A DNA stretch of 55,708 nt from Opitutaceae bacterium (GTDB taxonomy: Bacteria; Verrucomicrobiota; Verrucomicrobiia; Opitutales; Opitutaceae): the NCBI GenBank assembly GCA_035656575.1, contig DASRSH010000295.1, forward strand, positions 1-55,708, written 5' to 3'. The notes under the pieces are model-generated. The model was not told the DNA's origin and made no database searches. It saw nothing but the letters and a program-made list of their open reading frames with translations. Both the position numbers and the translations under genes were made by a program. Every line of letters starts with the position of its first letter. The stretch's first letter is position 1. Positions 9,960-31,301 of the stretch are shown here, piece after piece.

Positions 9960-10032
9960 GGCAGGAAGGGGGATTTCATTCGATCGGGTTTGACCCGGCA
10001 AGGGCGAAACGCATCACTCGCGGTCTCCGCGC

Positions 10033-10875: not shown

Positions 10876-10880
10876 CCGCC

Positions 10881-11960: not shown

Positions 11961-12002
11961 GCCGGCCGCGGCCCGCCGTTCCGAATCGGAAAGTCTGGGG
12001 CC

Positions 12003-13096: not shown

Positions 13097-13298
13097 GGCA
13101 GCACCCAGGGCGCCGCCTCCGGGCCCCCCGTGCAAGCGGCCCGATTACCGTGAATCCGGTAGCGTTGTTCCCATTTCATGAAACGTTTGGCCCGAAAGGG
13201 TGTCTGCCCCGTGCGATGGCCGGGTGCGCGCGGGGATTTTCACTATTGCCAAGCGGGGAGATTTGCCGCGGGCTGACCCTTCGATTTTTCGCTGACTT

Positions 13299-15885: not shown

Positions 15886-17122
15886 CGCCCAACCTGCGCA
15901 TCGCGATCCGCTTCCTGACGGCGAAGAAGCGGTCCATGCTGATGAGCTTTTCGTGCATCATCCTCGGCGTGGGCCTGTACGTCGTCACCCAGGCCACGAC
16001 GAGCGGATTCCAGGGCTATTTCATCAAGACCATCCTGGGGACGGACGGAGCGGTCCGGATCGCGGACAAGCTGCAGGCGACGATGCAGACGATCGCGGCC
16101 GGCGGGTACAATTCCGGCTTCGACATCCAGGACATCGGCTTCAAGCACATCGAGGGCATCGACTATCCGGAGCAGCTCAAGGCGACCCTGCGCACCTTCC
16201 GCAACGTCGACGCCATCTCCGAGGTGCTGCGGGGCTCGAACATCACGATCCGCAGCCCCTTCAAGGACGATGTCGTTCAGGTGTACGGCATCAATGTGAA
16301 CGATCACCGGAGGGTGTCGGACATCGGCAGCCAGATCGTGGCCGGTTCGCTTCTGGCCTTCAGCACGAGCGCGGACGGGGCGATGCTGGGGCGCGACATG
16401 GCCGACCGCCAGCACCTGCAAGTGGGTGACAGCTTCGAACTGGTGACCGCGGATCAGACGCGGCGGTTTTGGGTGCGGGCCATCTATCAGACCGGAGTCG
16501 AGGACATCGACCGGGTCCGGCTTTACCTCAACATGGAGCAGGCGCGCTCGCTGCTGGAGAAGCCCACCGGGGTCTCCTATCTGCAGGTCAGCCTGCACGA
16601 CGTGAACCGGGCGGACCGGGATGCGGGGTGGATGCAGGGCGTGCTGGGCTACGAGGTCGCCGCCTGGCAGTTCCGCGAGCGCACCTGGCTGCAGGTGTTC
16701 AAGATGCTCAGCATCTCGACCGGCATCACGGTGTCGGTCTTCGCGCTGATCGCGGGCCTGGCCATGTGGACGACCCTGGCGATGATCGTCTATGAAAAGA
16801 CCAAGGACATCGCGATCCTCCGCTCGATGGGCTATAGCCGCGCGGACATCTCGATGATTTTCCTGTGGCAGGCGGCCATCGTGCTGGTCGTCGGCTGCAC
16901 CATCGGCTGCATCCTGGGCGCGGGGGTGACCTACGCCGTTTCCCAGGTGCCATTGCAAATTCGCGGCATTTTCGCGGCCAACCACCTGATCGTCCAGTGG
17001 AACAAGTGGCATTATATCCAGGCCGTCGGAATCTCGGTGCTCATGGTGATGGTCGCCAGTCTGGTGCCGGCCCGCCGGGCGGCCCGGCTTGAGCCGGGCG
17101 ACATCATCCGAGGCACCGCGCA

Positions 17123-17126
<4 letters not shown>
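15882..17126 (+). CDS. FtsX/MacB/LolCE-family ABC transporter permease
   Basis: LRIAIRFLTAKKRSMLMSF..., a large periplasmic domain, then C-terminal FtsX TM helices (AILRSMGYSRADI...). ATGA overlap with the upstream gene. Confidence 0.8.
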
Positions 17127-17794
<668 letters not shown>

Positions 17795-18004: not shown

Positions 18005-18658
18005 ATGTCGAAACTTTACCCGAAGTCGGTCAACAAGCTGCCGCTCCAGATCATCGTCTATCTGTTTGTGCTGAGCGGCCTGATCACCGCCGGGGCGACG
18101 TACTACATGACCCCGAAATACACGCGGGTCGGTTACAGTCCCATCCAGCCGGTGCCTTACAGCCACGCCATTCACGCCGGCCAGCTCGGGATCGATTGCC
18201 GGTACTGCCATAGCAACGTGGAGACCTCCGGCTTCGCCAACCTGCCCACCGCGCAGACCTGCATGAACTGCCACGACCAGGTCAAGGCGAACAGCCCGCT
18301 GCTGGCGGTGGTGCGCGAAAGCTACCGCACCGGCCGCCCCGTGCCGTGGATCCAGATCCACCAAGTTCCCGATTTCGTCTATTTCAACCACGCCGTGCAC
18401 GTCTCGCGCGGCATCAGCTGCGTCGACTGCCACGGCCGCATCGACCAGATGGATGTCGTCTCCGAGGCCAAATCCCTGGCGATGGGCTTCTGTCTGGATT
18501 GCCATCGCGATCCCGAGGCCCACCTTCGCCCCCGCAACGAGGTGACCAACCTCGCGTGGAAGGCGCCCTCGCCCCAGGCCCAGCTCGCGATGGGCCTCAA
18601 GTTCAAGCACGACTGGAACATCAATCCTCCGCAAAGCTGCTCCGGCTGCCATCGATGA
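18005..18658 (+). CDS. actA: Alternative Complex III pentahaem cytochrome c subunit
   Basis: Track ORF 17957..18658; start taken at the ATG at 18005 (MSKLYPK...). N-terminal TM helix plus five CxxCH motifs: CRYCH, CMNCH, CVDCH, CLDCH, CSGCH. Confidence 0.85.
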   Translation: MSKLYPKSVNKLPLQIIVYLFVLSGLITAGATYYMTPKYTRVGYSPIQPVPYSHAIHAGQLGIDCRYCHSNVETSGFANLPTAQTCMNCHDQVKANSPLLAVVRESYRTGRPVPWIQIHQVPDFVYFNHAVHVSRGISCVDCHGRIDQMDVVSEAKSLAMGFCLDCHRDPEAHLRPRNEVTNLAWKAPSPQAQLAMGLKFKHDWNINPPQSCSGCHR

Positions 18659-21600
18659 AACGCGAAGTCATCCATCCCGCCCCCTCCGAACGCGCCCAGC
18701 GCGGCCCGCGCTATTGGCGCAGCCTCGACGAGCTGGCGGAAACGCCGGGTTTCCGGAAGCACCTGGAACGGGAGTTTCCCGAAGGGGCGTGGAACCTCGA
18801 GGGCGTGGACCGGCGCCATTTCATGAAGATCATGGCGGCCTCCTTCGCCCTGGGCGGCGCGGGGATGGCCGGCTGCCGGCGTCCGGAGAGCAATATTCTG
18901 CCCTACGGCCGCTCGGTTGAGGGGCAGATTCCCGGCCTGCCGCTGTATTATTCGACCGCGATGCCATGGCGACGCTACGCCATGCCGCTGATCGCGGAAA
19001 CCCATCAGGGCCGGCCGACCAAAGTCGAGGGCAATCCGGGTTATGCGCCGCATGGCGGCGCCTCTTCGCTGCACGCCCAGGCGTCGCTCCTGGACATGTA
19101 CGATCCCGATCGCGCCAAGGCCCACACCCAGGACGGACGGACGCTCGAGGTGGCCGAGGTGAACGCGCTGCTCGCGCGCATCGGCTCCGACCATGCGGAC
19201 GGCCAGGGGCTCGCCTTTCTCGCCGGCTTCTCGTCCTCGCCGACCCGCGCCCGGCTGGTCGAAAGCCTCAAAGCCAAGTTTCCCCACGCTGTCTGGGCGG
19301 AATACGAGGCGGTCTCGGAGGATCCTCCGGTCGAGGCGACCCAGACCGTGTTCGGCCGGCCGCTGCGGCCGATCTACCGCTTCGCCGCCGCCAAGCGCAT
19401 CGTCTCCATCGACGGCGACTTCCTCGGCACGGAGGCCGGCAAGCTCTATTATTCGCGCGAATTCGCCAAGGGCCGGCGGGTGAAGTCCAAGGACGACCCG
19501 ATGAGCCGCCTCTATATGGCGGAGAGCGGCTTCACCCTGACCGGCAGCATGGCGGACCACCGGCTGCGCGTGGCAACCAGCCACATGCTGGCCTTCGCCG
19601 CCGCGCTGGCGTCCAAGATCACGGGCGACGCGACCTTCGACCGCCTGGCCCAGGGGCTGGACCTGAATCCCCAATGGATCGAGGAGTGCGCCGCCGACCT
19701 GTCCGCCCACAAGGGCGAATGCCTCGTCGTGGCCGGCTGCCACTTGCCGGCGGCCGTGCACGCGATCGCGCACGCGATCAATGCCGCGCTGGGCAACCTG
19801 GGCAGCACCGTCGATTTCGTCGAATTGACCGAGCCGGCTCCCGCCAGTCTCGCCGATCTGGCCGGCGCCATCCGGGGCGGAAGGGTCAAGACCCTCGTCA
19901 TCCTGGGCGGCAATCCCGTTTACAACGCGCCGGCGGACCTGGATTGGGCCTCCCTGCAGAAATCGGTGCCGCAGGTCGTCCGGCTCGGTTACTATGTCGA
20001 CGAGACGTCGGCGTACGCGTCGGTCAATCTGGCCGAGGCGCATTATCTCGAGTCGTGGGGCGACGGGCGCACCTTTGACGGCACGGTGGTGCCGATCCAG
20101 CCGATGATCCTGCCCCTGTTCGGCGGACTGACCGAGATCGAGGTTTTGGCGCGGATCGCGGGGGAGGCCGATCCCGACCCGCACGCGCTCGTGCAAGCAA
20201 CCTTCGCCACTCTTCCCGGCGGCAAGGAGCCGAAGGCGTTCGAGAAGTTCCTTTACGACGGTTTCCTGGAAGGGACCGCGTATCCGACGGTGTCGCCCGA
20301 TTTCAACGGCGCCGGAATCGCCGCGCTGGCCAATGCCGCGGGAAGGTATCAGGCGCTGTCGCTGGACAGCCTCGAAGTCAGGCTGGTCGCGGACTACAAG
20401 GTCGACGACGGCCGCTTCGCCAACAACGGCTGGCTGCAGGAATGTCCCGATCCGATGACCAAGGTGTCATGGGACAACCTGATCCTGGTCAGCCCCAAGC
20501 TCGGGAAGGCGCTGGGCATCCAGAGCAAGGGATCGGTGCTGCAGGTGGCACGCGACGAGACCGAACAGATCTCGAAGGGCAACGAGGGGGCGCCGATCGG
20601 GGAGCTGACGGTCAACGGCCGTTCGGTGCGCGGGCCGATGCACATCCAGCCCGGGCTGTCGGATTTCACGGTGGTCCTGCCGCTCGGCTATGGCCGCACG
20701 GTCTCGGGGCATATCGGCACGCACGCGGGCTTCAACGCCTATGTGGTGCGCACGAGCGACGCCATGCATGTCGCCACCGGCGGAAAGCTGCGCGTGACGG
20801 GCGAGCACATGCTCGTCGCCAACGTGCAGGAGCATTGGTCGATGGAAGGCCGCGCCCTGGTGCGCGAGGCGAACCTCAGCGATTTCCAGGAGCATCCGGA
20901 TTTCGCCCAGGAGGAGAGCATGGAAGCGGAGACTCCGCCCCTGCTCACGGCCGCCCAAGCCGCAGAGCCGGTGCCGGAGCAGGTCACCAACATTCCCCGC
21001 GGCAATTCGCTCTATACGACGCCGGTGTTCAAGGACCACATCGAGCAGTGGGGGATGAACATCGACCTCAACACCTGCATCGGCTGCAACGCCTGCGTCG
21101 TCGCCTGCCAGGCCGAGAACAATATTCCGATCGTGGGCAAGGACCAGTCGATCCGCGGGCGCCAGATGCACTGGATCCGCATCGACCGCTACTTCTCCGA
21201 TGGCCATGCCTCCACGGCGGCCTTCGGCGGAGAAGGCAACCGCGAGATTCCGGAGGATCCCCAGGTGTCGCTCCAGCCGGTTGCGTGCATGCAGTGCGAA
21301 TTGGCGCCCTGCGAAATGGTCTGCCCGGTCAACGCCACCATCCACGACGACCAGGGGCTCAACGTCATGGCCTACAACCGGTGCATCGGCACCCGGTATT
21401 GCGCCAATAACTGCCCCTACAAGGTGCGCCGCTTCAATTACTTCGACTGGAACGAGCGTTCGATCGACAGCCTGTACATGGGGCCCCTCGGGCCGCACGG
21501 CATGCCCGAGCTGCTGAAAATGGCCAAGAACCCGCAGGTCACGGTCCGGATGCGCGGGGTGATGGAAAAGTGCACCTACTGCGTCCAGCGCATCGAGAAC

Positions 21601-21942
21601 GGCAAGATCAACTGGAAGGTGAAGTCGGCCCGGGAGGGCGATCCCGGCAATGTCACCGTGCCCGACGGCTACATCAAGACCGCCTGCCAGCAGGTCTGCC
21701 CCGTCGAGGCGATCGTCTTCGGCAACATCCTTGATCCGAACAGCGAGGTCTCGCAGGCCAAGGCCCGGGTGCAGGACTATGCGCTGCTGGGTTATCTCAA
21801 CACCCGGCCGCGCACCACCTACCTGGCGCGCCTGCGCAATCCCAATCCGCGCATGCCCGATTACCATGCCCTGCCGCTGAGCCGCGCCGAGCACGACGCC
21901 AAGAGCGACGCCGCCTTCCCGAAAAACAGAGGAGACAACTGA
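18655..21942 (+). CDS. actB: Alternative Complex III subunit B (molybdopterin-oxidoreductase-like domain fused to a 4Fe-4S ferredoxin domain)
   Basis: Track ORF 18346..21942 trimmed to the ATG at 18655 (ATGA overlap with actA). Twin-arginine signal [21 protein letters not shown]-terminal cluster motifs [46 protein letters not shown]. Confidence 0.9.
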
Positions 21943-21944: not shown

Positions 21945-23411
21945 ATGGCCCACGCGACCAGCTCGGCCGCCGCCGCGCCCGCCATTCTATCCGAAGTCAA
22001 GCCGTCCGTTCTGCCCCGGCCGGCGCTGGTGGAAAACCGCCGCAGCTTCACCTGGATCAGCGACAAGATCTGCGGGATCGTCGAGGGCAAGACCCCGACG
22101 TGGTGGTGGTGGTGCTTCATCGTCGCCTGCTGCATCGCGAGCTTCACGGTCTGCGGCATCGTCTATGAGGTCGCCACGGGCATCGGCGTCTGGGGCCACC
22201 GCACGCCGATCAACTGGGGCTGGCCCATCGTCAACTTCGTCTTCTGGATCGGCATCGGCCACGCCGGCACGCTGATTTCCGCCATCCTGTGCCTGCTGCG
22301 CCAGAAGTGGCGCACGTCGATCAACCGCTCGGCCGAGGCGATGACGATCTTCGCCGTGGTGTGCGCCGGCATCTTCCCGGTGTTCCACGTCGGCCGCGTC
22401 TGGTACGCCTGGTTCCTCTTCCCGCTGCCCAACTACAACTACATCTGGCCGCAGTTCCGCTCGCCGCTGGAGTGGGACGTGTTCGCGGTCTCGACCTACG
22501 GCACGGTCTCGGTCCTGTTCTGGTACGTCGGCATGATTCCGGACCTCGCGCTGCTGCGCGACCGGTTCGCCGCGGCGGGGCGCATCCTGCGCGCCCGCCT
22601 CTACGGGCTGTTCGCCATGGGCTGGCGCGGGTCGGCCCGGGCCTGGAGCCACTACGAGATGGCCTACCTGATCCTGGCGGGCATCGCGACCCCGCTGGTG
22701 CTGTCGGTGCACACCATCGTGTCGTTCGACTTCGCGGTCTCGCTGATCCCCGGCTGGCACACGACGATCTTTCCGCCCTACTTCGTCGCCGGCGCCATCT
22801 TCTCGGGCTTCGGCATGGTCCTGACCCTGATGCTGCCGCTGCGGGCGATCTACCGGCTCGAGGACCTGATCACGCAGTACCACATCGACTGCATGTGCAA
22901 GATCACTTTGGCGACCGGTTCGATGGTCGGCTACTCCTACGCGATGGAGTTCTTCATCGCCTGGTACGGCGGCAATCCCTTCGAGGGCTTCACCTTCATC
23001 AATCGGGCCTTCGGCCCCTTCGCGTGGGCCTACTGGATCATGGTCAGCTGCAACGTGATCACGCCCCAGTTCTTCTGGTTCAAGGCCGTCCGGCGCAACA
23101 CGACGATGGTCTGGATCCTGTCCCTGTTCGTGAACCTGGGCATGTGGTTCGAGCGCTTCGTCATCATCTGCACGTCCCTGACCCGCGACTTCCTGCCCAC
23201 CAGCTGGGGCTACCTCAGCCCCACGGTGGTCGACATCTTCACCTTCTTCGGCACCTTCGGCGTCTTCTCCGTCCTGTTCCTGCTCTTCATCCGCTTCCTG
23301 CCTCTGATGGCGATCGCCGAGATCAAGGCCGTGACGCCGGCCGCCGACCCCCACGCCGGGCCGCCGCCGCACGGCGGCGTCGACCCGATCGATCTCGCGC
23401 ATCACCACTGA
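21945..23411 (+). CDS. actC: Alternative Complex III membrane subunit C (NrfD/PsrC-like quinol-interacting)
   Basis: 488-aa polytopic membrane protein. ...[25 protein letters not shown]... and ...[23 protein letters not shown]... are typical NrfD-family/ActC motifs. Starts 2 nt after the actB stop. Confidence 0.85.
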
Positions 23412-23417: not shown

Positions 23418-23951
23418 ATGGCCGAACCTACCTACGGACTGATTGCCGCGTTCGACACGCCCGCCGCCCTCTACCACGCGGCGGAGCAGGTGCGCGACGC
23501 CGGCTACCACCAATGGGACTGCATCACGCCCTTTCCCGTCCACGGGCTGGACGGCGCCATGGGCGTCAAGCGGTCCTACGTGCCGCGCATTTCGCTTTGC
23601 GGGGGCATCACCGGTTTCTGCACCGGCATGCTCATGATCTGGTTCATGAACGGGTTCGATTATCGGCTGACGGTGGGCGGCAAGCCGTTCTTCAGCCCGC
23701 TGTTCGCGTTCCCCATCTCCTACGAGCTGACGATCCTGTTCACGGCCTTCGCCACCATCGGGGGCATGTTCGTCGTCAACGGGCTGACCAAGCTCTACCA
23801 TCCGGTGCTGAAGTACGACCAGATCGCGCGCGCGATGTCGGATCGCTTCTATATCGTGATCGAGGCGCGGGACGGACGCTTCACCGCCGCCGACACGCGC
23901 GCCTTCCTCGAGCGGATCGGCGGCAAGGACATCGCCGAATTGGAAGACTAA
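23418..23951 (+). CDS. actD: Alternative Complex III subunit D (DUF3341-type membrane protein)
   Basis: YGLIAAFDTPAALYHAAEQVRDAGY..WDCITPFPVHGLD plus two TM helices; canonical ActD position. Confidence 0.8.
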   Translation: MAEPTYGLIAAFDTPAALYHAAEQVRDAGYHQWDCITPFPVHGLDGAMGVKRSYVPRISLCGGITGFCTGMLMIWFMNGFDYRLTVGGKPFFSPLFAFPISYELTILFTAFATIGGMFVVNGLTKLYHPVLKYDQIARAMSDRFYIVIEARDGRFTAADTRAFLERIGGKDIAELED

Positions 23952-23955: not shown

Positions 23956-24618
23956 ATGCGCACCCTTTACCTGACGACTTTCCTGACCGCGCTGCTCCTG
24001 GTCTCCCTGCTCGGATTCCGCGGCGCCAAGTTCACCCATCCGCCGGCCGACGTGTTTCCCGAATGGCTGTTCCCGGGAATGAAGCGCCAGCCCAAGTACA
24101 AGCCGATGGGAACAAGCGCCTTCTTCGCGGACGGCCGCGCCGACCGCATGCCCGTGCCCGGGACGGTGCCCAATGACTACGGTCCCGTCGGCCAGCCCTT
24201 CCGCGGCGACGATCATCTTTACCTGGGCAAGAATCCGGACGGCTCCTGGGCCAAGGGCTTCCCGGACTCGATCAAGGTCGACATGAAGCTGATGGAGCGC
24301 GGACGCGACCGCTTCCAGATCTATTGCGCGCCCTGCCACGGCCTGGTGGGCGACGGCAACGGCGTGACCAAGCGTTACGGCATGGGCGCCACCCCCAGCT
24401 ATCACGATGACCGGCTGCGCGGCGTCCCCGACGGCTACATCTTCGACATCATCACCCACGGCAAGCAGCCGGCGAACAACATGCCCCCCTATGCCGACAA
24501 GCTCACGCCCGAGGACCGCTGGGCGGTGGTGGCTTATGTCCGCGCCCTGCAGCGCGCCTCGCACGCCTCGATCGCCGACGTGCCGGCCGATGAGCGGGCG
24601 CAACTAGGCCTCAAATGA
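23956..24618 (+). CDS. actE: Alternative Complex III monohaem cytochrome c subunit
   Basis: Signal/anchor helix, a single CAPCH motif and a distal Met context (NNMPPY); canonical ActE position. Confidence 0.8.
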   Translation: MRTLYLTTFLTALLLVSLLGFRGAKFTHPPADVFPEWLFPGMKRQPKYKPMGTSAFFADGRADRMPVPGTVPNDYGPVGQPFRGDDHLYLGKNPDGSWAKGFPDSIKVDMKLMERGRDRFQIYCAPCHGLVGDGNGVTKRYGMGATPSYHDDRLRGVPDGYIFDIITHGKQPANNMPPYADKLTPEDRWAVVAYVRALQRASHASIADVPADERAQLGLK

Positions 24619-25886
24619 GCAATCCCGCCATACCCGCTCCCAGCGCCGCCCTGTCGGCGACGCCCTCCGCCACCGCCGCGGCGGCGAACCGGGCCCTGCT
24701 CATCGGGCTGGGAGGCATCCTCGTCACCTGGCTGGGCGCCTTCGTCTCGGGCCCCCGCGTCGTGGGCACCGCCTGGCTGGTGGGAGAGGGCTTCTGGACC
24801 GCAGCCGCCATCGGCTTTCTGATGCTGACCATGCTGCTGCACATCTTCGACGCGATGTGGGGCACTGTGCTGCGCCGTCAGCTCGAGCACGGCCTGGTCG
24901 CGTTCAAGTGGCTCGCCCTGCTGTTCGTGCCGATGCTCCTGGTCGCGGTGTTCCGGCCGCACAATCCGGTCTGGGTCTGGATGGACCTCAGCCACCGGAT
25001 GGTCGCGGAGCACACCACCGTGGGGAACGACATCATCTATTGGCGCAAGTCGAGCCTGCTGAATTTCCGCGCCTTCGTCATCTTCACCGCCGTCCTGTTC
25101 GTCTTCTGGATCTGGGTCGCGTCCCGGCTGCGGCGCGCGTCGATCGCGCAGGACTCGGACGGAGATCCGAAGTGGACGGTCAAGAATCGGTTCACCTCCG
25201 GGTTCGGCCTTCCCTTGGGCGGCCTGGCGCTGACGGCCGCCGCCATCCTCTGGTTCAAGAGCCTGGAATACCACTGGTTCTCGACCATGTACGGGGTGTG
25301 GTACTTCGCCGACTGCATGCGCTGCGCGCTCTCCTTTGGCGTGCTGATCATGTTCTGGCTGTGGCACCGCGGCGATTACCAGGGCGTCCTCAATCGCAAC
25401 CACTGGCACAGCATCGGCCAGCTCATGCTCGCCTTCACCGTCTTCTGGGGGTACATCTGCTTCAGCCAGTACTTCCTGACCTGGAACGCGAACGTGCCGG
25501 AGGAGACCTTCTGGTTCAACGAACGCGAATTCGGGGACTGGTACGCGATCGGCATGGTGCTGGTATTCGGCAATTTTCTCCTGCCGTTCCTCCTGCTGCT
25601 CTCGTATCGCTTCAAGATCACCAAGCACATCATCCGGCGGATCGCGATCTGGATATTGCTCACCACCTTCATCGACCTGTGCTGGAACATCCTGCCGGCG
25701 CTGAAGGACGCCAACGGCAACGCCCGGCCGTTCCTTTCGCTCACGCTCGTCTGGGCCATCACTTCGACGATCGGCATCGGCGGCATCTGCATCTGGGCCT
25801 ACCTGCGCGCCCTGCCCGCCACCAAGCTGATTCCCATCCGCGACCCGCGCATCACCGAGACCCTCACATTCCACGAAGATGAGTGA
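24615..25886 (+). CDS. actF: Alternative Complex III membrane subunit F (second NrfD-like subunit)
   Basis: 423-aa polytopic membrane protein directly after actE (ATGA overlap); position and topology match ActF. Confidence 0.75.
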   Translation: MSNPAIPAPSAALSATPSATAAAANRALLIGLGGILVTWLGAFVSGPRVVGTAWLVGEGFWTAAAIGFLMLTMLLHIFDAMWGTVLRRQLEHGLVAFKWLALLFVPMLLVAVFRPHNPVWVWMDLSHRMVAEHTTVGNDIIYWRKSSLLNFRAFVIFTAVLFVFWIWVASRLRRASIAQDSDGDPKWTVKNRFTSGFGLPLGGLALTAAAILWFKSLEYHWFSTMYGVWYFADCMRCALSFGVLIMFWLWHRGDYQGVLNRNHWHSIGQLMLAFTVFWGYICFSQYFLTWNANVPEETFWFNEREFGDWYAIGMVLVFGNFLLPFLLLLSYRFKITKHIIRRIAIWILLTTFIDLCWNILPALKDANGNARPFLSLTLVWAITSTIGIGGICIWAYLRALPATKLIPIRDPRITETLTFHEDE

Positions 25887-26223
25887 CCCCGCGTTTTCCT
25901 CCCCACGCCCGGTCGGGTTGGTGACCATCCTGGCCATCTTCGTCTGCCTGGGACTGTTCTGGCTGGTTCTGCGCTACTCCTACCAGCGCCGCCATCATCC
26001 CGAGCCGTACAACATCCCGGCGCAGAACGAGGCCAAGGAAGACCTGTGGCAGGCGACGCCGGCGGCCCGCCTGGAGTACCTGCACGAGCTTCGCGCCAAG
26101 CACGAGGCGCAGCTCCGCTCCTACGGCTGGGTCGACCGCAAAAATCAGATTGTCCAGATCCCGATCACGCGCGCGATGCAGCTCGTGGTGCAGGATTATG
26201 CCCGCCAATCCTCTTCGCAATGA
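25879..26223 (+). CDS. Single-pass membrane protein (114 aa), unknown; sits where ActG or an accessory subunit would be
   Basis: One N-terminal TM helix (LVTILAIFVCLGLFWLVL) followed by a charged soluble tail. Overlaps actF by 8 nt and the next gene by ATGA, so it is translationally embedded in the operon. Confidence 0.55.
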   Translation: MSDPAFSSPRPVGLVTILAIFVCLGLFWLVLRYSYQRRHHPEPYNIPAQNEAKEDLWQATPAARLEYLHELRAKHEAQLRSYGWVDRKNQIVQIPITRAMQLVVQDYARQSSSQ

Positions 26224-27620
26224 CGCTCGCTTCGACGCCCACCGCCGAAACGCCGGCTGCTCCCGCTGAAGTCACCGTGGTGGAAACCGCGGGACGGGTG
26301 CCGCTGCTGCTCCTGGCCGGCTCCGCCATCGCCTGGCTGCTGGTGAGCGGCATCCTGGCGCTGGCCTCCAGCATCCAGCTCGTGCATCCGGATTTCCTCA
26401 GCGGGTGGTCCTTCCTTTCCTATGGCCGGCTCACGGCTCTGGCGGAAACCGCCTTCATCTACGGTTGGGTCGGCAACGCCGGGCTGACCGTCGCGCTGTG
26501 GATGCTGGGGCGGCTCAGCGGCGAGCCGCTGCGGGCGCCCAACTGGCTCCTGGCCGGGGCCTCCTTCTGGAATTTCAGCCTGCTGCTGGCCCTGATCGGC
26601 ATCGCGATCGGCTACGGCACCGCGGTTCCGTTCTTCGAACTGCCGACCGTGACGATTCCGATCCTTTTCCTGTCCTATGCCGCGATGGCCATTCCGGGCG
26701 TGCTGGCCTGGGTGGGCCGGCGCCGCGATCTGATGTTCGCGTCCCAATGGTACGCCGTGGCCGCCCTCTTCCTGTTTCCGTGGATCCTGGCTGTGGGCTA
26801 CTTCATGCTGGACAAGATTCCCGTCCAAGGCGCCGTGCAGGCGGTGGTGGGCGGCTGGTACGCGCAGGCCCTGTGGACCGTCTGGATGGCGCCGCTCGCC
26901 CTGGCCGGGGCCTATTACGTTGTTCCGCGCGTCACCGGCAAACTGCTGCCGGCCTACGATTCGGCGGTCCTGGGTTTTTGGGTTCTGGTGGTCGTCGGCG
27001 GCTTCACGGGCGGCCGCCACTTGATCGGCGGCCCGCTCCCGGCATGGGTCGCGAGCGTCGCCATCGTGACGACGTTCCTCCTGCTGGTTCATTACGTGGT
27101 GGTGCTGCTCAACCTTCGGGTGGCCTGGGGCGGCGGCGGCACGGCGCTCAAGTTCATCGGCCTCGGGCTGTTCTGCTACGTGCTCGGCGGCTTCGCCGAC
27201 GCGGTGACGTCGGTCCGGGGCGTGGCCGTGAGCACGCAATTCACCTTCTTTGACGTGGCGCAAACCCAGCTGGCCCTGTACGGCGGGGTGACCCTGATGC
27301 TGCTGGGCGCGCTGTACTTCGCGCTGGCCCGCATCCTCGGACGGCCGTGGTGCTCGGCGGGGCTCATCCGCGCGCATTGGGCCCTGACCGTTCTCGGGCT
27401 GGCCGCCGTGGTCATCTGCCTGGCCGTCGCCGGACTCCGCCAGGGGGCGGACCTGAATAACGCGCAGGTCTCGTTCGCCGCGATCGCGGACGATACCCGC
27501 CCCTGGCTGGTGGGCGCGGTCGCGGGCGCGGCGGCCCTGCTCCTGGGCAACATCCTTTGGGCGCTCAACCTGGCCGGCACCGCAGCCGCCATGGTGCGCG
27601 AGGAGCTGTTCGCGTCATGA
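26220..27620 (+). CDS. CcoN-like (cbb3-type haem-copper oxidase subunit I fold) membrane protein lacking most canonical haem/Cu histidine ligands
   Basis: Track ORF 26046..27620 trimmed to the ATG at 26220. 466 aa, about 12 TM helices. Blocks SYGRLTALAETAFIYGW, GGWYAQALWTVW....GAYYVVPR and GFTGGRHLIGGPLP parallel the CcoN blocks SFGRLRPLHTNAVIF, WWYGHNAVGF....MYYFVPK and AGPHHLHYTALP. Only 4 His in the whole protein. Confidence 0.75.
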   Translation: MTLASTPTAETPAAPAEVTVVETAGRVPLLLLAGSAIAWLLVSGILALASSIQLVHPDFLSGWSFLSYGRLTALAETAFIYGWVGNAGLTVALWMLGRLSGEPLRAPNWLLAGASFWNFSLLLALIGIAIGYGTAVPFFELPTVTIPILFLSYAAMAIPGVLAWVGRRRDLMFASQWYAVAALFLFPWILAVGYFMLDKIPVQGAVQAVVGGWYAQALWTVWMAPLALAGAYYVVPRVTGKLLPAYDSAVLGFWVLVVVGGFTGGRHLIGGPLPAWVASVAIVTTFLLLVHYVVVLLNLRVAWGGGGTALKFIGLGLFCYVLGGFADAVTSVRGVAVSTQFTFFDVAQTQLALYGGVTLMLLGALYFALARILGRPWCSAGLIRAHWALTVLGLAAVVICLAVAGLRQGADLNNAQVSFAAIADDTRPWLVGAVAGAAALLLGNILWALNLAGTAAAMVREELFAS

Positions 27621-28255
27621 AAAACGGACTGATGCTTTTTCTCGGCCTGCTGGCCGCGATGCTCATTCCCTGGTCCGCGATCGTCCTCGGGGCGAACCAC
27701 GAACTGGGCCGGCAGCCGGCGTATTACGACGACAACGACAGCCAGGCGTATCCGCTGCGTCCCTCGGGTATCGCCGCCGAAGGCGAGCAGGTGTACCGCG
27801 GGCTGAATTGCGCCGCGTGCCACACCCAGCAGGTGCGGCGCGACGGCTACGGCTCGGACGTGGCGCGCGGGTGGGGCGACCGGCAGAGCGTGGCGCGCGA
27901 CTATATCTTCCGCGCCAACCCCGAACTCGGCGCGCTGCGCATCGGGCCCGACCTGGCCAACCTGGCCGGCCGCAAGCCGACGGCGCCCGACATCGACGAT
28001 CTCTACACCCTGCTTTACGAAGGCCAGGGCGCGATGCCGCCCTACCGCTTCCTGTTCCAGTACCGCAAGATCATCGGCCAGCGCTCGGACGATGCCCTGC
28101 AGCTGGTTGGACGCTATGAGCCCCGGCCGGGCTACGAGGTCGTGCCCACCCGCGCGGCCCAGCGCCTGGCGGGCTATTTGCTCAGCTTGAATTCGACGTA
28201 CACGTATCCGGAAGCGCGCGCCGCCGCGCCGGCTGCCGGGGAGGGCAGGAAATGA
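27617..28255 (+). CDS. CcoO/FixO-like monohaem cytochrome c (cbb3 subunit II homologue)
   Basis: Track ORF 27557..28255 trimmed to the ATG at 27617 (ATGA overlap). N-terminal TM anchor; GEQVYRGLNCAACHTQQVRR...RIGPDLANLAGR...GAMPPYRFLF parallels CcoO (CxxCHSQMIRP...RTGPDLARVGGR...MPSYPWL). Confidence 0.8.
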   Translation: MKNGLMLFLGLLAAMLIPWSAIVLGANHELGRQPAYYDDNDSQAYPLRPSGIAAEGEQVYRGLNCAACHTQQVRRDGYGSDVARGWGDRQSVARDYIFRANPELGALRIGPDLANLAGRKPTAPDIDDLYTLLYEGQGAMPPYRFLFQYRKIIGQRSDDALQLVGRYEPRPGYEVVPTRAAQRLAGYLLSLNSTYTYPEARAAAPAAGEGRK

Positions 28256-28911
28256 GCGTTTCGCCATCCGATCCGCGCTACGACCGGGCTGCCGCCAGCG
28301 ACGACGCGCTGCTCAACGCCCACGAGGCGGCGCTGGCCCCCCAGGGGGACGATCATGCCCATTACCCGCTGCGCCCGCTCGTGCTGCTGTTCGTGACCAG
28401 CGGATTCATCCTCTTCGCCGCGACCTACCTGAATCGCTACGCCGGCCAGTACGACCCGACGGTGTTCAACGAGGACACGCTGCCCAATCATGCGGCGGTC
28501 AGTGCCCCCGCCGCCGACCCGGTGACCTTGGGCAAGCGCCTGTTCAATTCGTCCGGCGCCTGCTTCACCTGCCACCAGCCGACGGGGCAGGGCATTCCCG
28601 GCGTTTATCCGCCGCTGGCGGGATCCGAATGGGCCCAGGGTTCGCCCGACCGTGTCATCCGCATCCTGCTGGCCGGGCTGACCGGCCCGGTCACCGTCGA
28701 AGGCAAGACCTTCAATGCCGCCCAGATGCCCTCCTTCGGTCCCAGCGGATTCAATTGGAGCGACGAGAAGATTTCGCAGGTCCTGACCTACGTCCGCCAG
28801 GAATGGGGCAACAAGGCCCCCCCGATCACGCCCGCCCAAGTGGCCGCGATCCGCGCCACGATCGGCGACCACCCGGCGTGGACGTCGGCGGAGCTGCTGC
28901 AAATCAAGTAA
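28252..28911 (+). CDS. Membrane-anchored class I monohaem cytochrome c
   Basis: TM helix (LVLLFVTSGFILFAATYL), a single CFTCH motif and a Met-ligand context (AAQMPSFG). ATGA overlap with the CcoO-like gene. Last gene of the operon. Confidence 0.8.
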   Translation: MSVSPSDPRYDRAAASDDALLNAHEAALAPQGDDHAHYPLRPLVLLFVTSGFILFAATYLNRYAGQYDPTVFNEDTLPNHAAVSAPAADPVTLGKRLFNSSGACFTCHQPTGQGIPGVYPPLAGSEWAQGSPDRVIRILLAGLTGPVTVEGKTFNAAQMPSFGPSGFNWSDEKISQVLTYVRQEWGNKAPPITPAQVAAIRATIGDHPAWTSAELLQIK

Positions 28912-29363: not shown

Positions 29364-30257
29364 ATGATGGCTGGGTGCAGAATATACTGGCGGGCGCTTT
29401 TCGTCGGCATCGCGGCCGCCGTCAGCCTCCAGGCCGACGACGTCCCCACTGTCGTCCCGCCCCTCAACGCGGATCCTTCCCCGGACTATTATGCGGGCAA
29501 GATCGTCTGGGCGAACCTGTACACCACCGACGTCGCGGCGTCGACGAAGTTTTACACCCAGCTCTTTGGCTGGACCGCCCAGTCGGTCCCGGGGCGCGGG
29601 CCGCGGTCGATCCTTGCGCTGAACGGCCGCCCGATCGCGGGCGTCGTCACGCGGTCGGCGCGAATGCGGGACCTGGCCCATGGCCGGTGGGTTCCTTTTG
29701 CTTCGGTGCCGGACGTGGCGGCGGCCCTGTCCGCCGCCGCGGCGGACGGAGGGCGGACCCTGCATGCGGCGCATTCGGTGCCCGACCGGGGCGAACAGGG
29801 AGTCTTCGCGGATGCGGAGGGCGCGCTTTTCGGGGTGATCCATTCGAGTTCGGGCGACCCGGGCGAGTACCTGGCCGAACCGGGAGAGTGGGTCTGGGCG
29901 GAATTGTTCGCCCGGGACACCGAGGCCGAAGCGAAATTCTACGCGGACGTGGCGGGCTACGAGCCCGTCCCCGACCGCCGGACAGCGGAGCCCAATCGCT
30001 TCGTGCTGGTGAGCGGGAGCTATTCCCGGGCCAGCATCGTGCCGGTGCCGAATAGGCCCCGCGCGCATCCGGCCTGGCTCCTGTTTGTCCGGGTGCAGGA
30101 TGTGAAGGCGGCCGCGGATCAGGCCGCGGCGCTGGGCGGACGCGTGATCATCGCCCCGAGCCTGTCGCCTTTGCACCACGAGCAGGCGATTGTCGCCGAT
30201 CCGACCGGCGGGGCGGTGGGACTGGTCGAACTGCCGGCCGCGGAGGATTCACGGTGA
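29364..30257 (+). CDS. Secreted two-domain VOC (glyoxalase/bleomycin-resistance fold) family protein
   Basis: Signal peptide (ALFVGIAAAVSLQA/DD). Two repeats of the pattern ...W(A)(N/E)L(Y/F)..D...(S/A)..FY..(L/V)(F/A)GW/Y... and ...GG(R)...(P)..., typical of tandem VOC modules. Confidence 0.65.
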   Translation: MMAGCRIYWRALFVGIAAAVSLQADDVPTVVPPLNADPSPDYYAGKIVWANLYTTDVAASTKFYTQLFGWTAQSVPGRGPRSILALNGRPIAGVVTRSARMRDLAHGRWVPFASVPDVAAALSAAAADGGRTLHAAHSVPDRGEQGVFADAEGALFGVIHSSSGDPGEYLAEPGEWVWAELFARDTEAEAKFYADVAGYEPVPDRRTAEPNRFVLVSGSYSRASIVPVPNRPRAHPAWLLFVRVQDVKAAADQAAALGGRVIIAPSLSPLHHEQAIVADPTGGAVGLVELPAAEDSR

Positions 30258-30724
30258 ATCCGCGGGCGGCCGTCCTTGCGCTCGGGACCGCGGGCTTGGC
30301 CCTGTGCGCCGCCGCGTTTTGGGGCTGCGCCACCGTCGCGGGCGGCGGCGGCGAGGAATTGATGTACAATCCGCCCGTCGACTACTCGTACGTGGGGGTG
30401 GATTTTGACAGCCCGCCCTACGGCCCGGAATATGCGTACGGTGCCTATCCGAATCGGCCGGGCGGCCGGCCGGCCGGCGGCCATCCGGGGAACGGCCATC
30501 CCGGAGAGGGCGGCAAACCGGGTGGGGGCGGGGGACGGCCCGCGCCCGGTCACGGCTCGCCGCCTTCGATTCCGAGCACGCCCCGCCCCTCGGGCGGCGG
30601 CGGGCATGGCGGCTGGGGTGGCGGCGGCGGTGGCGGCCATTCCGGCGGTGGCGGCGGCGGGGGTGGAGGAGGAGGCGGCCGTGGCGGTGGCGACGGGGGG
30701 AGCAGCGGCGGCAACCGCAAGTAG
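30254..30724 (+). CDS. Secreted Gly/His/Tyr/Pro-rich low-complexity protein (156 aa)
   Basis: GTG start overlapping the upstream TGA (GTGA). Signal peptide with Cys residues (LALCAAAFWGC). Tyr/Pro-rich segment YNPPVDYSYVGVDFDSPPYGPEYAYGAYP, then GHPGNGHPGEGG... and long poly-Gly. High GC3 supports this frame. Confidence 0.55.
   Translation: MNPRAAVLALGTAGLALCAAAFWGCATVAGGGGEELMYNPPVDYSYVGVDFDSPPYGPEYAYGAYPNRPGGRPAGGHPGNGHPGEGGKPGGGGGRPAPGHGSPPSIPSTPRPSGGGGHGGWGGGGGGGHSGGGGGGGGGGGGRGGGDGGSSGGNRK
30593..30712 (+). repeat. (GGN)n low-complexity coding repeat (poly-Gly with interspersed His/Trp/Ser)
   Basis: Read directly: ggcggcggcgggcatggcggctggggtggcggcggcggtggcggccattccggcggtggcggcggcggggg... 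It encodes GGGGHGGWGGGGGGGHSGGGGGGGGGGGGRGGGDGG. Confidence 0.9.
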
Positions 30725-30728
30725 CCGA

Positions 30729-31301
30729 TTGAAGACCATCGCGGTCGACCTGGACGATACCCTCAACAACTTTTCCGAGGTCTTGCACTCGGGGGAGTTC
30801 GCCAACGACCCGGCCGACGCCCTCTCCGAGGAGAAATTCCGAACCTACCGCGACCGCGTCCTGCGGGACGAGGATGAGGACACGGACCTGCTCAGCACCG
30901 AGTTCACCTATTTCCGGGCCCGGCTTCATCTCCGCTGTTTTGCCCGTACGGTGCCGCAGCGGGATGCGGCCCCGTTCATGCGCGGACTGCGCCGCGACGG
31001 CTGGCGGATCGTGATCTGCACCCGGCGCGATCTGCGCCGCGCGCACGGCTATACGCACCGCTGGCTGACCGAACAGGAAATTCCCTTCGACTATCTGTTC
31101 ACGGCCGGCAACAAGATCGCGTTTTGCGCCCTGTGGAAGATACCCTTCCTGGTCGACGACGACCTGTTCAGCATCGAGCACGGCCGCCGCTTCGGGGTGC
31201 AGGTGTTTTATCCGGCGATGGCGAAGCACGCCGGCATCGATCCGCGCGGGGCCAAGGGCTTCGCGGCGTTCGCGGAGGTCCGGCCATGGATCGGCGCCTA
31301 G
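30729..31301 (+). CDS. HAD-superfamily phosphatase, 5'(3')-deoxyribonucleotidase (NT5C)-like
   Basis: Track ORF 30405..31301 trimmed to the TTG at 30729, giving (M)KTIAVDLDDTLNNF. All four HAD motifs are present: DLDDT (I), ICTRR (II), GNK (III), LVDDD (IV). The upstream 108 codons are an Ala/Arg-rich read-through over the poly-Gly gene. Confidence 0.65.
   Translation: MKTIAVDLDDTLNNFSEVLHSGEFANDPADALSEEKFRTYRDRVLRDEDEDTDLLSTEFTYFRARLHLRCFARTVPQRDAAPFMRGLRRDGWRIVICTRRDLRRAHGYTHRWLTEQEIPFDYLFTAGNKIAFCALWKIPFLVDDDLFSIEHGRRFGVQVFYPAMAKHAGIDPRGAKGFAAFAEVRPWIGA

What the first reader, a model, noticed from the sequence alone, without database searches (positions are those of the whole stretch)
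26220..27620. cbb3 subunit I (CcoN) homologue stripped of its haem and copper ligands
The 466-aa product has the CcoN fold blocks, and a clear CcoO homologue follows it; CcoO accompanies only C-family haem-copper oxidases.

What the sequence shows directly:
- The protein contains only four histidines in total (in VHPDF, GGRHLIGG, LLVHYVV, RAHWAL). A functional haem-copper oxidase needs six His ligands.

Block-by-block comparison with Pseudomonas stutzeri CcoN as I remember it:
- SFGRLRPLHTN becomes SYGRLTALAET. The haem b ligand His60 is Ala (codon 26442-26444).
- WWYGHNAVGF becomes GGWYAQALWTV. The CuB ligand His207 is Gln.
- AGPHHLHY becomes TGGRHLIG. His257 is Arg; only His258 is kept.
- SHYTDWTIGHVHAG becomes STQFTFFDVAQTQ. 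The haem b3 ligand His345 is Ala and the haem b ligand His347 is Thr.

Inference: this protein cannot bind the binuclear centre or the low-spin haem in the canonical way. It still sits intact and in frame, ATGA-coupled on both sides, inside a respiratory operon. That argues it is a maintained, repurposed scaffold rather than a decaying pseudogene. Possible roles are a CcoO anchor, a proton or quinone conduit, or a docking subunit for ACIII.
Basis: partly seen in the sequence, partly recalled or inferred. Interest (0 to 1): 0.8.

Follow-up and report, generated by a model that had tools for sequence, protein, structure and literature searches.

The report
Haem-less cbb3 subunit beside ACIII
A gene that databases label as the catalytic subunit of a high-affinity (cbb3) oxygen reductase has lost every residue that holds its haems and copper. 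It is nevertheless kept intact at the end of the alternative-complex-III operon in many Opitutae (Verrucomicrobiota), so it cannot be a normal oxidase and is most likely a structural relic that positions two c-type cytochromes.

Summary
ORF 26220-27620 (466 aa) has the CcoN fold: Pfam COX1 E 2.9e-34, and an AlphaFold model with pLDDT 91 and TM 0.88 to PDB 3MK7 chain A. It has only four His. It lacks five of the six metal ligands and the cross-linked Tyr.

It is not a pseudogene. Orthologues are intact in 79 of 79 species genomes, and pairwise dN/dS is 0.04-0.2. The order ActABCDEF, 114-aa protein, CcoN-like, CcoO-like, cytochrome c holds in 80 of 80 loci.

The clade is large. Of 136 full-length 50%-identity cluster representatives, about 125 lack the ligands.

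Canonical six-His relatives occupy the same operon position in Planctomycetota, Chthoniobacterales, Limisphaerales and even Opitutaceae strain TAV1/TAV5. There a ccoS maturation gene always precedes ccoN. ccoS is absent from every ligand-less operon.

After ligand loss, CcoN went from the slowest- to the fastest-evolving gene of the operon (window versus TAV: 33% identity, against 80% for ActC). No new conserved site appeared. The CcoO-like subunit keeps its CXXCH motif and an axial Met or His.

Best reading: a redox-dead structural relic of an ACIII-coupled cbb3 oxidase. I found no description of it in the papers I could search. It is routinely annotated as an oxidase.

The parts
18005..18658 (+). 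actA, pentahaem cytochrome c of alternative complex III. The likely start is the ATG at 18005, inside the ORF that opens at 17957.
   Evidence: Five CXXCH motifs. NCBIfam QrcA-like match, E 1e-23. Conserved upstream of actB in all full-length loci. Its stop overlaps the actB start as ATGA.
18655..21942 (+). actB, the molybdopterin-like plus 4Fe-4S subunit of ACIII.
   Evidence: NCBIfam matches to QrcC/QrcB-like models and to the TAT-variant molybdopterin signal. Synteny.
21945..23411 (+). actC, the NrfD-type quinol-binding membrane subunit.
   Evidence: Pfam NrfD, E 3.8e-24. It is the most conserved gene of the operon: median 82% identity across Opitutaceae and 80.5% to strain TAV.
23418..23951 (+). 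actD.
   Evidence: Pfam ActD PF11821, E 3e-63.
23956..24618 (+). actE, monohaem cytochrome c.
   Evidence: Pfam Cytochrome_CBB3 and Cytochrom_C. One CXXCH in 67 of 68 orthologues.
24615..25886 (+). actF, the second NrfD-like membrane subunit.
   Evidence: phmmer matches to ActF chains of solved ACIII structures: 6f0k_F at E 4e-52, also 6lod_F, 8k9e_F and 6btm_F.
25879..26223 (+). 114-aa protein with a single transmembrane helix and no known family. It lies between actF and the CcoN-like gene.
   Evidence: No Pfam or PDB match. Present in 79 of 80 loci. Homologous to the small protein between actF and ccoS in canonical operons: Telmatocola 153 aa, and TAV 111 aa at E 7e-18.
26220..27620 (+). 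CcoN-like protein: a 12-helix haem-copper-oxidase subunit I fold without haem or copper ligands. This is the finding.
   Evidence: as set out under the observation check.
26442..26444 (+). Codon for Ala75, at the position of the haem b ligand His60.
   Evidence: This column is A, Q or R and variable among 121 family members.
26865..26867 (+). Codon for Gln216, at the position of the CuB ligand His207.
   Evidence: Gln in 121 of 121 close family members.
26997..26999 (+). Codon for Gly260, at the position of the cross-linked Tyr251.
   Evidence: Invariant Gly in alignment A1.
27015..27020 (+). Codons for Arg266 and His267, at the positions of the CuB ligands His257 and His258.
   Evidence: Arg in 121 of 121 and His in 118 of 121 family members.
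27258..27269 (+). Codons for Ala347, Gln348, Thr349 and Gln350, the stretch where canonical CcoN has His345-x-His347.
   Evidence: No His in any register.
27617..28255 (+). CcoO (FixO)-like membrane-anchored monohaem cytochrome c.
   Evidence: Pfam FixO above its cut-off. PDB CcoO chains match. CXXCH in 74 of 75 orthologues. The axial-ligand position is Met in 39 and His in 31 of 70, and nothing else. Orthologous to the FixO that follows six-His CcoN.
28252..28911 (+). Membrane-anchored monohaem class-I cytochrome c, in the position of CcoP.
   Evidence: Pfam Cytochrom_C. Matches c552 and the cytochrome domain of Cu-nitrite reductase, E 3e-18. CXXCH in 70 of 70 orthologues and the MP motif at 90% or more. 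Orthologous to the third gene of the canonical operons.

Best explanation
Proposal. The gene encodes a catalytically dead descendant of CcoN, the haem b / haem b3-CuB subunit of a cbb3 oxidase that was encoded in the same operon as alternative complex III.

Ancestral state. The operon actABCDEF - small TM protein - ccoS - ccoN - ccoO - cytochrome c makes a quinol-to-oxygen chain. This state is still seen in Planctomycetota, Chthoniobacterales, Limisphaerales and Opitutaceae strain TAV1/TAV5.

What changed. In a large Opitutae lineage that includes this window, the cofactor-insertion gene ccoS was deleted. CcoN then lost all haem ligands and two or three of the three copper ligands, the cross-linked Tyr, the propionate-binding Arg residues and the proton-channel residues.

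What remains. A 12-helix membrane scaffold that no longer carries electrons or reduces O2. It is kept because it is a structural piece of the assembly. It holds the CcoO-like and CcoP-like c-type cytochromes, both of which keep their haem motifs, in place next to ACIII. It may also stabilise ACIII itself. Electrons from menaquinol would then leave through ActA/ActE and these two c haems to a separate acceptor encoded elsewhere.

Shown: loss of ligands, retained fold, purifying selection, fixed operon position, loss of ccoS, acceleration of CcoN, retention of the c-haem motifs.

Inferred: physical association with ACIII, absence of haem b and Cu in the protein, the direction of electron flow and the identity of the acceptor.
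For: Fold without ligands:
- COX1 match.
- AlphaFold2 model with pLDDT 91 and pTM 0.91.
- Foldseek top hits are all cbb3 CcoN (TM 0.86-0.88), followed by NorB and then A- and B-family oxidases.
- Ligand columns read from the alignment to 3mk7_A.

Maintained, not decaying:
- 79 of 79 ORFs are intact.
- dN/dS is 0.04-0.2.
- Q216, R266, H267 and A347 are invariant or nearly so in 121 proteins.

Fixed place in the operon:
- 80 of 80 species genomes share the gene order.
- Four very divergent ligand-less representatives have the same neighbours.
- Every junction from actA to the last cytochrome is an overlap or a gap of a few bases.

Descent from a real oxidase at the same locus:
- Six-His CcoN follows ActABCDEF, the small protein and ccoS in five independent canonical operons: L084, L089, L090, L091/92 and L093.
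- ccoS is absent within 10 kb of all 85 or so ligand-less loci, and there is no room for it.

Release of catalytic constraint:
- Every position that is at least 90% conserved in 117 six-His relatives and belongs to cofactor binding or the proton path is lost in 121 ligand-less representatives. These are R57, H60, W203, H207, T215, S240, Y251, H257, H258, H337, H345, H347 and R437.
- No position is newly conserved except conservative swaps such as F/Y, S/A and M/L.
- What stays conserved is shared with real CcoN.

Rate reversal:
- Among canonical lineages, CcoN (52-57% identity) is more conserved than FixO (48-51%).
- Among ligand-less lineages, CcoN-like (28-35%) is less conserved than FixO (33-47%).
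- Window versus TAV: ActC 80.5%, ActF 55%, cytochrome c 48%, FixO 43%, CcoN 33%.

Partners still bind haem c.

Precedent for ligand-less respiratory subunits kept for a structural role: the Acetobacter COX1-like protein and the 'deranged' bc1 complex (PMC10715153).
Against: - There is no direct evidence that the protein is made, that it lacks haem, or that it sits in a complex with ACIII.
- Both c-type cytochromes have their own membrane anchors, so a 466-aa scaffold looks like an expensive anchor.
- With no haem b below it, the CcoO haem is a dead end unless an external acceptor docks there. No such acceptor is encoded within 10 kb.
- Within the Opitutaceae sub-family, the former active site carries invariant polar residues (E76, Q216, R266, H267, Q348, and H291 elsewhere). 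That could mean a new site rather than mere filling of the cavity.
- One Opitutales protein (P0128) keeps both haem ligand pairs while lacking two CuB ligands, so some members may still bind haem.
- The tree used to order events is a quick neighbour-joining tree on saturated distances.
Confidence: 0.55

Rival explanations
1. Neo-functionalised scaffold. The emptied haem-copper cavity has become a new binding or conduction site. The polar cluster E76, Q216, R266, H267 and Q348 would form an ion or proton path, or a pocket for quinone or a small molecule. The protein would then do real work for ACIII and not merely hold its partners.
For: In the 121 close family members, Q216 and R266 are invariant, and H267, A347, E76 and Q348 are nearly so. 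If the fold is as modelled, the residues replacing the three CuB ligands and the b3 ligand must lie within a few angstroms of each other. This follows from the geometry of 3MK7 and is an inference. Purifying selection is as strong as on ActE and ActF.
Against: These residues are not conserved across the wider ligand-less clade. Position 216 is H, N, Q, G or S. Position 266 is P, R, S, H or a gap. No clade-wide gain of a conserved polar residue is seen. The K-channel residues T215, S240, H243 and Y251 are replaced by Ala or Gly.
Confidence: 0.17
2. Assembly or expression helper only. The gene would be kept because ccoO and the cytochrome c gene are translationally coupled to it, or because the protein transiently chaperones membrane insertion of ACIII or the cytochromes. 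It would not be a stable subunit.
For: ATGA overlaps on both sides. The gene order never varies.
Against: Translational coupling alone would not keep a 466-aa ORF under dN/dS of about 0.1 with a preserved 12-helix fold and conserved structural residues in more than 100 divergent clusters.
Confidence: 0.1
3. Still a haem protein or oxidase. The protein would bind haem and/or a metal through non-canonical ligands and retain some O2 or NO chemistry.
For: H267 (the CuB ligand His258) and H386 (His384 of P. stutzeri CcoN) are conserved. P0128 keeps four of the six His.
Against: Only four His exist in the whole protein, and none lies at or near the axial positions on TM2 or TM10. No alternative His, Met, Cys, Lys or Tyr is conserved across the clade. 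The propionate-binding Arg57 and Arg437, Trp203 and Tyr251 are lost. The maturation gene ccoS is gone from the operon.
Confidence: 0.04
4. Pseudogene, or a sequencing or assembly artefact.
For: Five of six ligands are missing, which is what decay of an enzyme gene would also produce. The NCBIfam ccoN equivalog score is far below its cut-off (76 against 583).
Against: No stop or frameshift is present. A 97%-identical protein is found on 8 independent contigs. All 79 orthologues are intact. dN/dS is 0.04-0.2. GC3 is 0.83, as in neighbouring genes. The fold prediction is confident.
Confidence: 0.01

Closest known systems
CcoN of cbb3-type cytochrome c oxidase (C-family haem-copper oxidase; PDB 3MK7, 8SMR, 6XKW)
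   Same: Twelve-helix fold (TM 0.88, rmsd 2.3 A). About 23% identity. Shared structural W/G/P/R residues. Followed by a CcoO homologue and a further c-type cytochrome.
   Different: No haem b ligands, no haem b3 ligand, one of three CuB ligands, no cross-linked Tyr, no propionate Arg, proton-channel residues replaced, and no ccoS next to it. Scores 76 bits against the 583-bit cut-off of the NCBIfam ccoN equivalog.
ACIII-linked canonical cbb3 operon of Planctomycetota and Verrucomicrobiota (for example Telmatocola sphagniphila CP074694, Opitutaceae TAV1/TAV5 CP007053)
   Same: Same gene order and orthologous genes: ActC is 80% identical to TAV, and the small TM protein, FixO and the cytochrome c are all shared.
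   Different: Those operons carry ccoS, and a CcoN with all six His and the Tyr. The window has neither. Its CcoN-like protein is only 33% identical to the TAV CcoN.
ACIII-aa3/caa3 supercomplexes (Flavobacterium johnsoniae 6BTM; Rhodothermus marinus, PMC5928083)
   Same: An oxidase module is encoded directly after actABCDEF, and in those organisms it is physically attached, so that ACIII haems feed it directly.
   Different: There the oxidase is an active A-family enzyme. Here the module is C-family derived and its core subunit is cofactor-less. Association is only inferred.
'Deranged' respiratory subunits of Acetobacteraceae: the COX1-like protein lacking all metal ligands, kept next to ctaB, and the ligand-less cytochrome b/Rieske of bc1 (PMC10715153)
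   Same: A respiratory catalytic subunit that has lost its cofactor ligands but is retained, with a structural role proposed.
   Different: A different HCO family (A-type), a different phylum and a different partner (CtaB or Complex I). No accompanying haem-c subunits and no ACIII.
cNOR NorB/NorC
   Same: The next-best structural match after CcoN (TM 0.80-0.82). It has a monohaem c partner related to CcoO (my own knowledge).
   Different: NorB keeps all six His plus the FeB glutamates. None of these is present here.

Membership tests
Haem-copper oxidoreductase superfamily, subunit I (Pfam COX1 PF00115) | Sequence and fold of the 12-helix subunit I core. | tested here: met
   119 bits against a cut-off of 34.8, covering profile positions 6-434 of 436. 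Foldseek TM 0.88 to 3mk7_A.
Haem-copper oxidoreductase superfamily, functional enzyme | Six invariant His: two for the low-spin haem, one for the high-spin haem and three for CuB/FeB. | tested here: not met
   Only the His258 equivalent (H267) remains. HCO classifiers explicitly discard such sequences (PMC3084760).
C-family oxygen reductase (cbb3 CcoN) | Active-site Tyr on helix 7 (Tyr251), cross-linked to His207. | tested here: not met
   Gly260 at this position, invariant in the family.
C-family oxygen reductase (cbb3 CcoN) | Closest relatives by sequence and structure are CcoN, and the gene is followed by ccoO. | tested here: met
   Orthology to the CcoN/FixO of canonical operons.
C-family oxygen reductase (cbb3 CcoN) | Reaches the NCBIfam equivalog model TIGR00780 (ccoN). 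| tested here: not met
   76.4 bits against a cut-off of 583.
C-family oxygen reductase (cbb3 CcoN) | Maturation genes (ccoS/fixS, ccoI) available for cofactor insertion. | tested here: inconclusive
   Absent from the 55.7-kb window and from within 10 kb of all ligand-less loci, while ccoS is adjacent in all five canonical operons. The rest of the genome could not be searched.
C-family oxygen reductase (cbb3 CcoN) | Reduces O2 with electrons from cytochrome c. | not testable with these tools
   Needs biochemistry.
cNOR (NorB) | Six His plus conserved Glu residues for FeB. | tested here: not met
   His ligands absent. NorB is a weaker structural match than CcoN.
Alternative complex III operon | actABCDEF present and contiguous with the gene. 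| tested here: met
   ActD Pfam at E 3e-63. ActF matches 6f0k_F at E 4e-52. ActC is NrfD-type, ActB is Fe-S/molybdopterin-like and ActA has five haems. Order conserved in 80 of 80 loci.
Retained pseudo-enzyme subunit (dead relic of a catalytic subunit) | Catalytic and cofactor residues lost while fold and purifying selection persist. | tested here: met
Retained pseudo-enzyme subunit (dead relic of a catalytic subunit) | Stable incorporation in a complex where it plays a structural role. | not testable with these tools
   Inferred only from operon linkage and overlapping genes.

The most novel reading that the evidence does not exclude
The cofactor-less CcoN, together with its two retained c-type cytochromes and the 114-aa protein, would be a previously unrecognised functional module of alternative complex III. 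The old oxidase shell would have been converted into a new device: for example an ion or proton path coupled to ACIII turnover, or a docking and exit port that hands electrons to a non-oxygen acceptor. The Met/His dimorphism of the CcoO haem ligand would tune its potential for different acceptors.
Probability: 0.15. Interest if true: 0.9.

Novelty: new variant of a known kind. Interest (0 to 1): 0.7.

Why it matters
1. Annotation. These proteins are named 'cbb3-type cytochrome c oxidase subunit I' by NCBI and JGI. The ACIII-cbb3 linkage in Opitutaceae and other Verrucomicrobia is cited as evidence for high-affinity oxygen respiration (PMC8498564; PMC5615132 supplement). For the large ligand-less clade that inference is wrong. 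The clade includes at least 188 species-level genomes with a relative of the query, and more than 120 clusters at 50% identity. Gene-marker surveys that count ccoN will overestimate microaerobic potential there.

2. Evolution. Closely related operons carry either the live or the dead subunit, with ActC 80% identical between them. This is a clean natural experiment on what happens to a respiratory catalytic subunit once its cofactors go. The maturation gene is lost, the evolutionary rate reverses, and the fold persists.

3. ACIII biology. The result predicts a physical ACIII-(CcoN-like/CcoO/cytochrome c) assembly in which the oxidase core has only a structural role. This makes testable the open question of why oxidase modules are attached to ACIII, and whether that attachment matters beyond electron delivery.

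4. Classification. HCO classifiers filter out sequences without the six His, which explains how such a large clade could go unremarked.

Tried and rejected
- Pseudogene or frameshift: rejected.
- Misalignment as the cause of the missing ligands: rejected. The same hmmalign read-out recovers all six His in 115 of 121 and 106 of 112 canonical relatives. A pairwise phmmer alignment and a structural superposition agree.
- A second, canonical ccoN or an A-family oxidase nearby: none in the window or within 10 kb in 88 related loci.
- ccoS, ccoI, ctaA, ctaB or SCO1 nearby: none.
- Identity of the 114-aa protein: no Pfam, NCBIfam or PDB match. It is only shown to be homologous to the small protein of canonical operons.
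- Promoter and terminator scans at the operon ends: uninformative.
- Rfam and tRNA scans of the window: nothing found.
- Whether the trait covers all Opitutaceae: no. TAV1/TAV5 and some Opitutales and Puniceicoccaceae genomes are canonical.
- Whether the ACIII-linked CcoN of verrucomicrobial methanotrophs (Methylacidiphilum) is canonical: could not be determined. No labelled sequence surfaced.
- Literature: ten full-text searches found no description of a ligand-less CcoN in an ACIII operon. Refojo et al. 2010 (BBA) and Muntyan et al. 2015 (PNAS, whose HCO tree has an 'unknown group') are not in the library and remain unchecked.
- Inspecting the model's interior for filled or empty haem cavities: not possible, because coordinates are not exposed.
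Full report
**What is there.** The window has 67.7% G+C. On its + strand it carries ten tightly packed genes:
- actA (18005-18658)
- actB (18655-21942)
- actC (21945-23411)
- actD (23418-23951)
- actE (23956-24618)
- actF (24615-25886)
- a 114-aa single-helix protein (25879-26223)
- the CcoN-like gene (26220-27620)
- a CcoO-like gene (27617-28255)
- a membrane-anchored monohaem cytochrome c (28252-28911)

Five of the junctions are ATGA overlaps, and the others are an 8-base overlap or gaps of 2-6 bases. The ACIII assignments rest on four results. Pfam ActD matches at E 3e-63 and NrfD matches ActC. ActF matches the ActF chains of four solved ACIII structures, with 6f0k_F at E 4e-52. ActA and ActB give QrcA-, QrcB- and QrcC-like matches. 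The flanking genes are housekeeping and efflux genes. The window holds no other oxidase, no ccoS/G/H/I, no tRNA and no Rfam match.

**Checking the observation.**
- The 466-aa product matches Pfam COX1 end to end (E 2.9e-34).
- Its closest solved relatives are only cbb3 CcoN chains.
- It contains exactly four His: H56, H267, H291 and H386.
- Aligned to P. stutzeri CcoN, H60 is Ala75, H207 is Gln216, H257 is Arg266, H258 is kept as His267, H345 is Ala347 and H347 is Thr349.
- A profile alignment slides helix 10 by one residue, giving Gln348 and Gln350. There is no His in 344-352, so the register does not matter.
- The cross-linked Tyr251 is Gly260, Arg57 is Thr72, and T215, S240 and H243 are Ala, Ala and Gly.
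- An AlphaFold2 model built on 63 family members is confident (pLDDT 91, pTM 0.91, twelve long helices).
- The model superposes on CcoN of 3MK7 at TM 0.88 and rmsd 2.3 A. It fits CcoN better than NorB (TM 0.80-0.82) or A/B-family subunit I (TM about 0.7-0.77).

**It is maintained.**
- A protein search returned 465 relatives. The best 120 are 53-97% identical, and the labelled ones are all Opitutaceae, Opitutus or Verrucomicrobia.
- In these, Gln216 and Arg266 are invariant (121/121), His267 is present in 118/121 and Ala347 in 119/121. The two haem b positions vary.
- A scan of one genome per GTDB species found 188 genomes with a relative. The best 80 are all Opitutaceae, Opitutales or unclassified Verrucomicrobiota MAGs.
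- In all 80, the order ActA-F, 114-aa protein, CcoN-like, CcoO-like, cytochrome c is kept as far as each contig reaches.
- All 79 extractable ORFs are intact at 450-491 aa.
- Pairwise Nei-Gojobori dN/dS for pairs with unsaturated dS is 0.04-0.2.
- Median identity to the window is 54%. That is close to ActF (59%), ActE (61%), the CcoO-like protein (56%) and the cytochrome c (54%), and well below ActC (82%).

**How big the clade is.** A profile search of 1.84 billion 50%-identity representatives gave 2086 clusters at E <= 1e-3 and 436 at E <= 1e-30. The best 150 were returned. Among the 136 full-length representatives examined:
- Five have the full His set.
- About 125 have none or one of the four ligands on helices 2, 6 and 7, and no HxH on helix 10.
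- The residues at the former ligand positions differ from cluster to cluster.

Every labelled ligand-less cluster is from Opitutae or Verrucomicrobiota, including marine ones. Four very divergent representatives have the same ACIII neighbourhood.

**Where it came from.** The nearest six-His proteins sit at the same place in the same operon. This holds in five independent cases:
- Telmatocola sphagniphila (Planctomycetota)
- a Chthoniobacterales MAG
- a Limisphaerales MAG
- an Opitutales MAG
- Opitutaceae strain TAV1/TAV5

In all five, actABCDEF is followed by a homologue of the 114-aa protein. Next comes a 63-86-aa ccoS/fixS gene (Pfam FixS, mutually alignable), then six-His CcoN, FixO and a monohaem cytochrome c. 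Telmatocola also has a P-type ATPase just downstream. The Chthoniobacterales locus continues into a caa3 operon.

ccoS is missing from all ligand-less loci. The distance from the stop of the small gene to the start of the CcoN-like match is at most 42 nt in 81 of 83 loci and never more than 120 nt, so there is no room for ccoS. CcoS is the factor needed to put haem b, haem b3 and Cu into CcoN (established knowledge of cbb3 biogenesis). Its deletion together with the loss of the ligands is what one expects if the cofactors are truly gone.

One Opitutales protein, P0128, keeps H60, H207, H345 and H347 but has Gln and Tyr at H257 and H258, and Ala at Tyr251. It has no ccoS. It looks like an intermediate in which copper was lost first.

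**What selection still sees.** I compared 117 six-His relatives with 121 ligand-less representatives.
- Positions at least 90% conserved in the former and lost in the latter form a catalogue of CcoN function. They are R57, H60, N62, N202, W203, H207, T215, S240, Y251, H257, H258, Y317 (partly), S321, H337, H345, H347, G349, R437 and H448.
- The only positions newly conserved in the ligand-less set are conservative swaps: F53Y, S240A, M278L and the like.
- The residues conserved in at least 75% of ligand-less proteins are almost all Trp, Gly, Pro and Arg that real CcoN also conserves.

Evolutionary rates reversed.
- Across phyla, canonical CcoN (52-57% identity) is more conserved than FixO (48-51%).
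- Among ligand-less lineages, CcoN-like (28-35%) is less conserved than FixO (33-47%).
- Between the window and strain TAV, which belong to the same family, identities are ActC 80.5%, ActD 69%, ActE 57%, ActF 55%, cytochrome c 48%, FixO 43% and CcoN 33%.

The partners keep their chemistry.
- CXXCH is present in 74 of 75 CcoO-like and 70 of 70 cytochrome c orthologues.
- The cytochrome c keeps its MP motif.
- The CcoO axial-ligand position is Met in 39 and His in 31 of 70 orthologues and never anything else. Both residues are iron ligands. From general cytochrome chemistry, the switch should change the haem potential.

**Interpretation.** The evidence fits a redox-dead relic. An ACIII-coupled cbb3 oxidase lost its cofactor-insertion gene and then all cofactor-binding residues of its core subunit. 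The core was retained as a structural membrane piece together with its two c-type cytochromes.

I put this at about 0.55. The loss of function and the persistence of the protein are shown. The structural role, the association with ACIII and the onward path of electrons are inferred.

The main alternative, at about 0.17, is that the emptied site has acquired a new role in the Opitutaceae sub-family. Glu76, Gln216, Arg266, His267 and Gln348 are invariant there, and by homology to 3MK7 they must cluster. The wider clade does not share these residues.

Three other readings are unlikely: a role only in expression or assembly, residual haem binding, and pseudogenisation. The reasons are given under the rival explanations.

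[quoted passage not shown] A study of freshwater Verrucomicrobia MAGs uses the ACIII-cbb3 operon as evidence for oxygen respiration (PMC5615132 supplement). For strain TAV5 the inference holds, because its CcoN is canonical (PMC4358385). For the ligand-less clade it does not.

HCO classification work removed sequences lacking the six His at the outset (PMC3084760). The nearest precedent is the 'deranged' COX1-like protein of Acetobacter and the ligand-less bc1 of Acetobacteraceae. These are proposed to persist for structural reasons (PMC10715153). That is a different oxidase family, phylum and partner.

I found no paper describing a ligand-less CcoN in ACIII operons. The library lacks most subscription journals, and two relevant papers could not be read. 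I leave about a one-in-five chance that it has been noted somewhere.

**Limits.**
- No coordinates were available, so cavity filling and residue distances are inferred from homology.
- Taxon labels exist for a minority of clusters.
- The tree is neighbour-joining on saturated distances. It cannot say whether the ligands were lost once or several times.
- Whether genomes with the dead module carry other oxidases could not be tested beyond 10 kb.

Noticed in passing
window 27617-28255 (residue M140 of the CcoO-like protein, motif GAMPPY): At the position of the canonical axial Met of the CcoO haem c, Opitutaceae orthologues have either Met (39) or His (31) and never anything else. This implies His/Met versus bis-His coordination, and probably very different redox potentials, in otherwise orthologous operons.
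   Followed up: partly
L081 5791-7251 (protein P0128, Opitutales MAG JBBDUJ010000067.1): A possible intermediate. This CcoN keeps both haem ligand pairs and His207, but has Gln and Tyr at His257 and His258, and Ala at Tyr251. The operon lacks ccoS. The protein is 44-49% identical to canonical CcoN, against 30-41% for other ligand-less proteins.
   Followed up: partly
L084 9729-9989; L089 3434-3658; L090 9795-10004; L092 9692-9949; L093 9785-9976: A short ccoS/fixS gene sits between the small TM protein and ccoN in every canonical ACIII-cbb3 operon examined. It is absent from every ligand-less operon.
   Followed up: yes
window 25879-26223: The 114-aa single-helix protein has no known family. 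It is conserved between actF and ccoS/ccoN from Planctomycetota to Opitutaceae. It may be an undescribed subunit of ACIII or of the ACIII-cbb3 assembly.
   Followed up: partly
proteins P0475 (Chthoniobacterales), P0409, P0441, P0458, P0465, P0478: A few members of the otherwise canonical clade read Arg or Asn at the CuB ligand His207 while keeping the other ligands. This may be further partial loss or a local alignment slip.
   Followed up: no
L089 (Chthoniobacterales VEQL01000007.1) 505-13355: ACIII, a canonical cbb3 and a complete caa3 operon with ctaA, ctaB, COX3 and SCO1 are strung together in one cluster.
   Followed up: no
window 29364-30257; L001 about 12729; L085 7700-8122: A glyoxalase-family gene follows the CcoN/CcoO/cytochrome c trio in the window, in its closest relative L001, and also after a canonical trio that lacks ACIII upstream (L085). 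This may be coincidence.
   Followed up: no
window 13299-17794: An outer-membrane factor, an HlyD-type adaptor, a MacB-type permease and an ABC ATPase (a tripartite efflux set) lie directly upstream of actA on the same strand.
   Followed up: no
window 42966-50568: An HlyD-type adaptor is followed by two tandem AcrB-type RND transporter genes. The second ORF, as listed, overlaps the first by about 400 nt, so its real start is probably later.
   Followed up: no
window 3183-4667 (-) and 30405-31301 (+): ORFs of 494 aa and 298 aa with high GC3 but no Pfam match.
   Followed up: no
literature (PMC5492636, Fig. 2 legend): An 'unknown group' in the HCO tree, first introduced by Muntyan et al. 2015 (PNAS), is mentioned. 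That paper could not be read, so I could not check whether the group overlaps the ligand-less clade.
   Followed up: no
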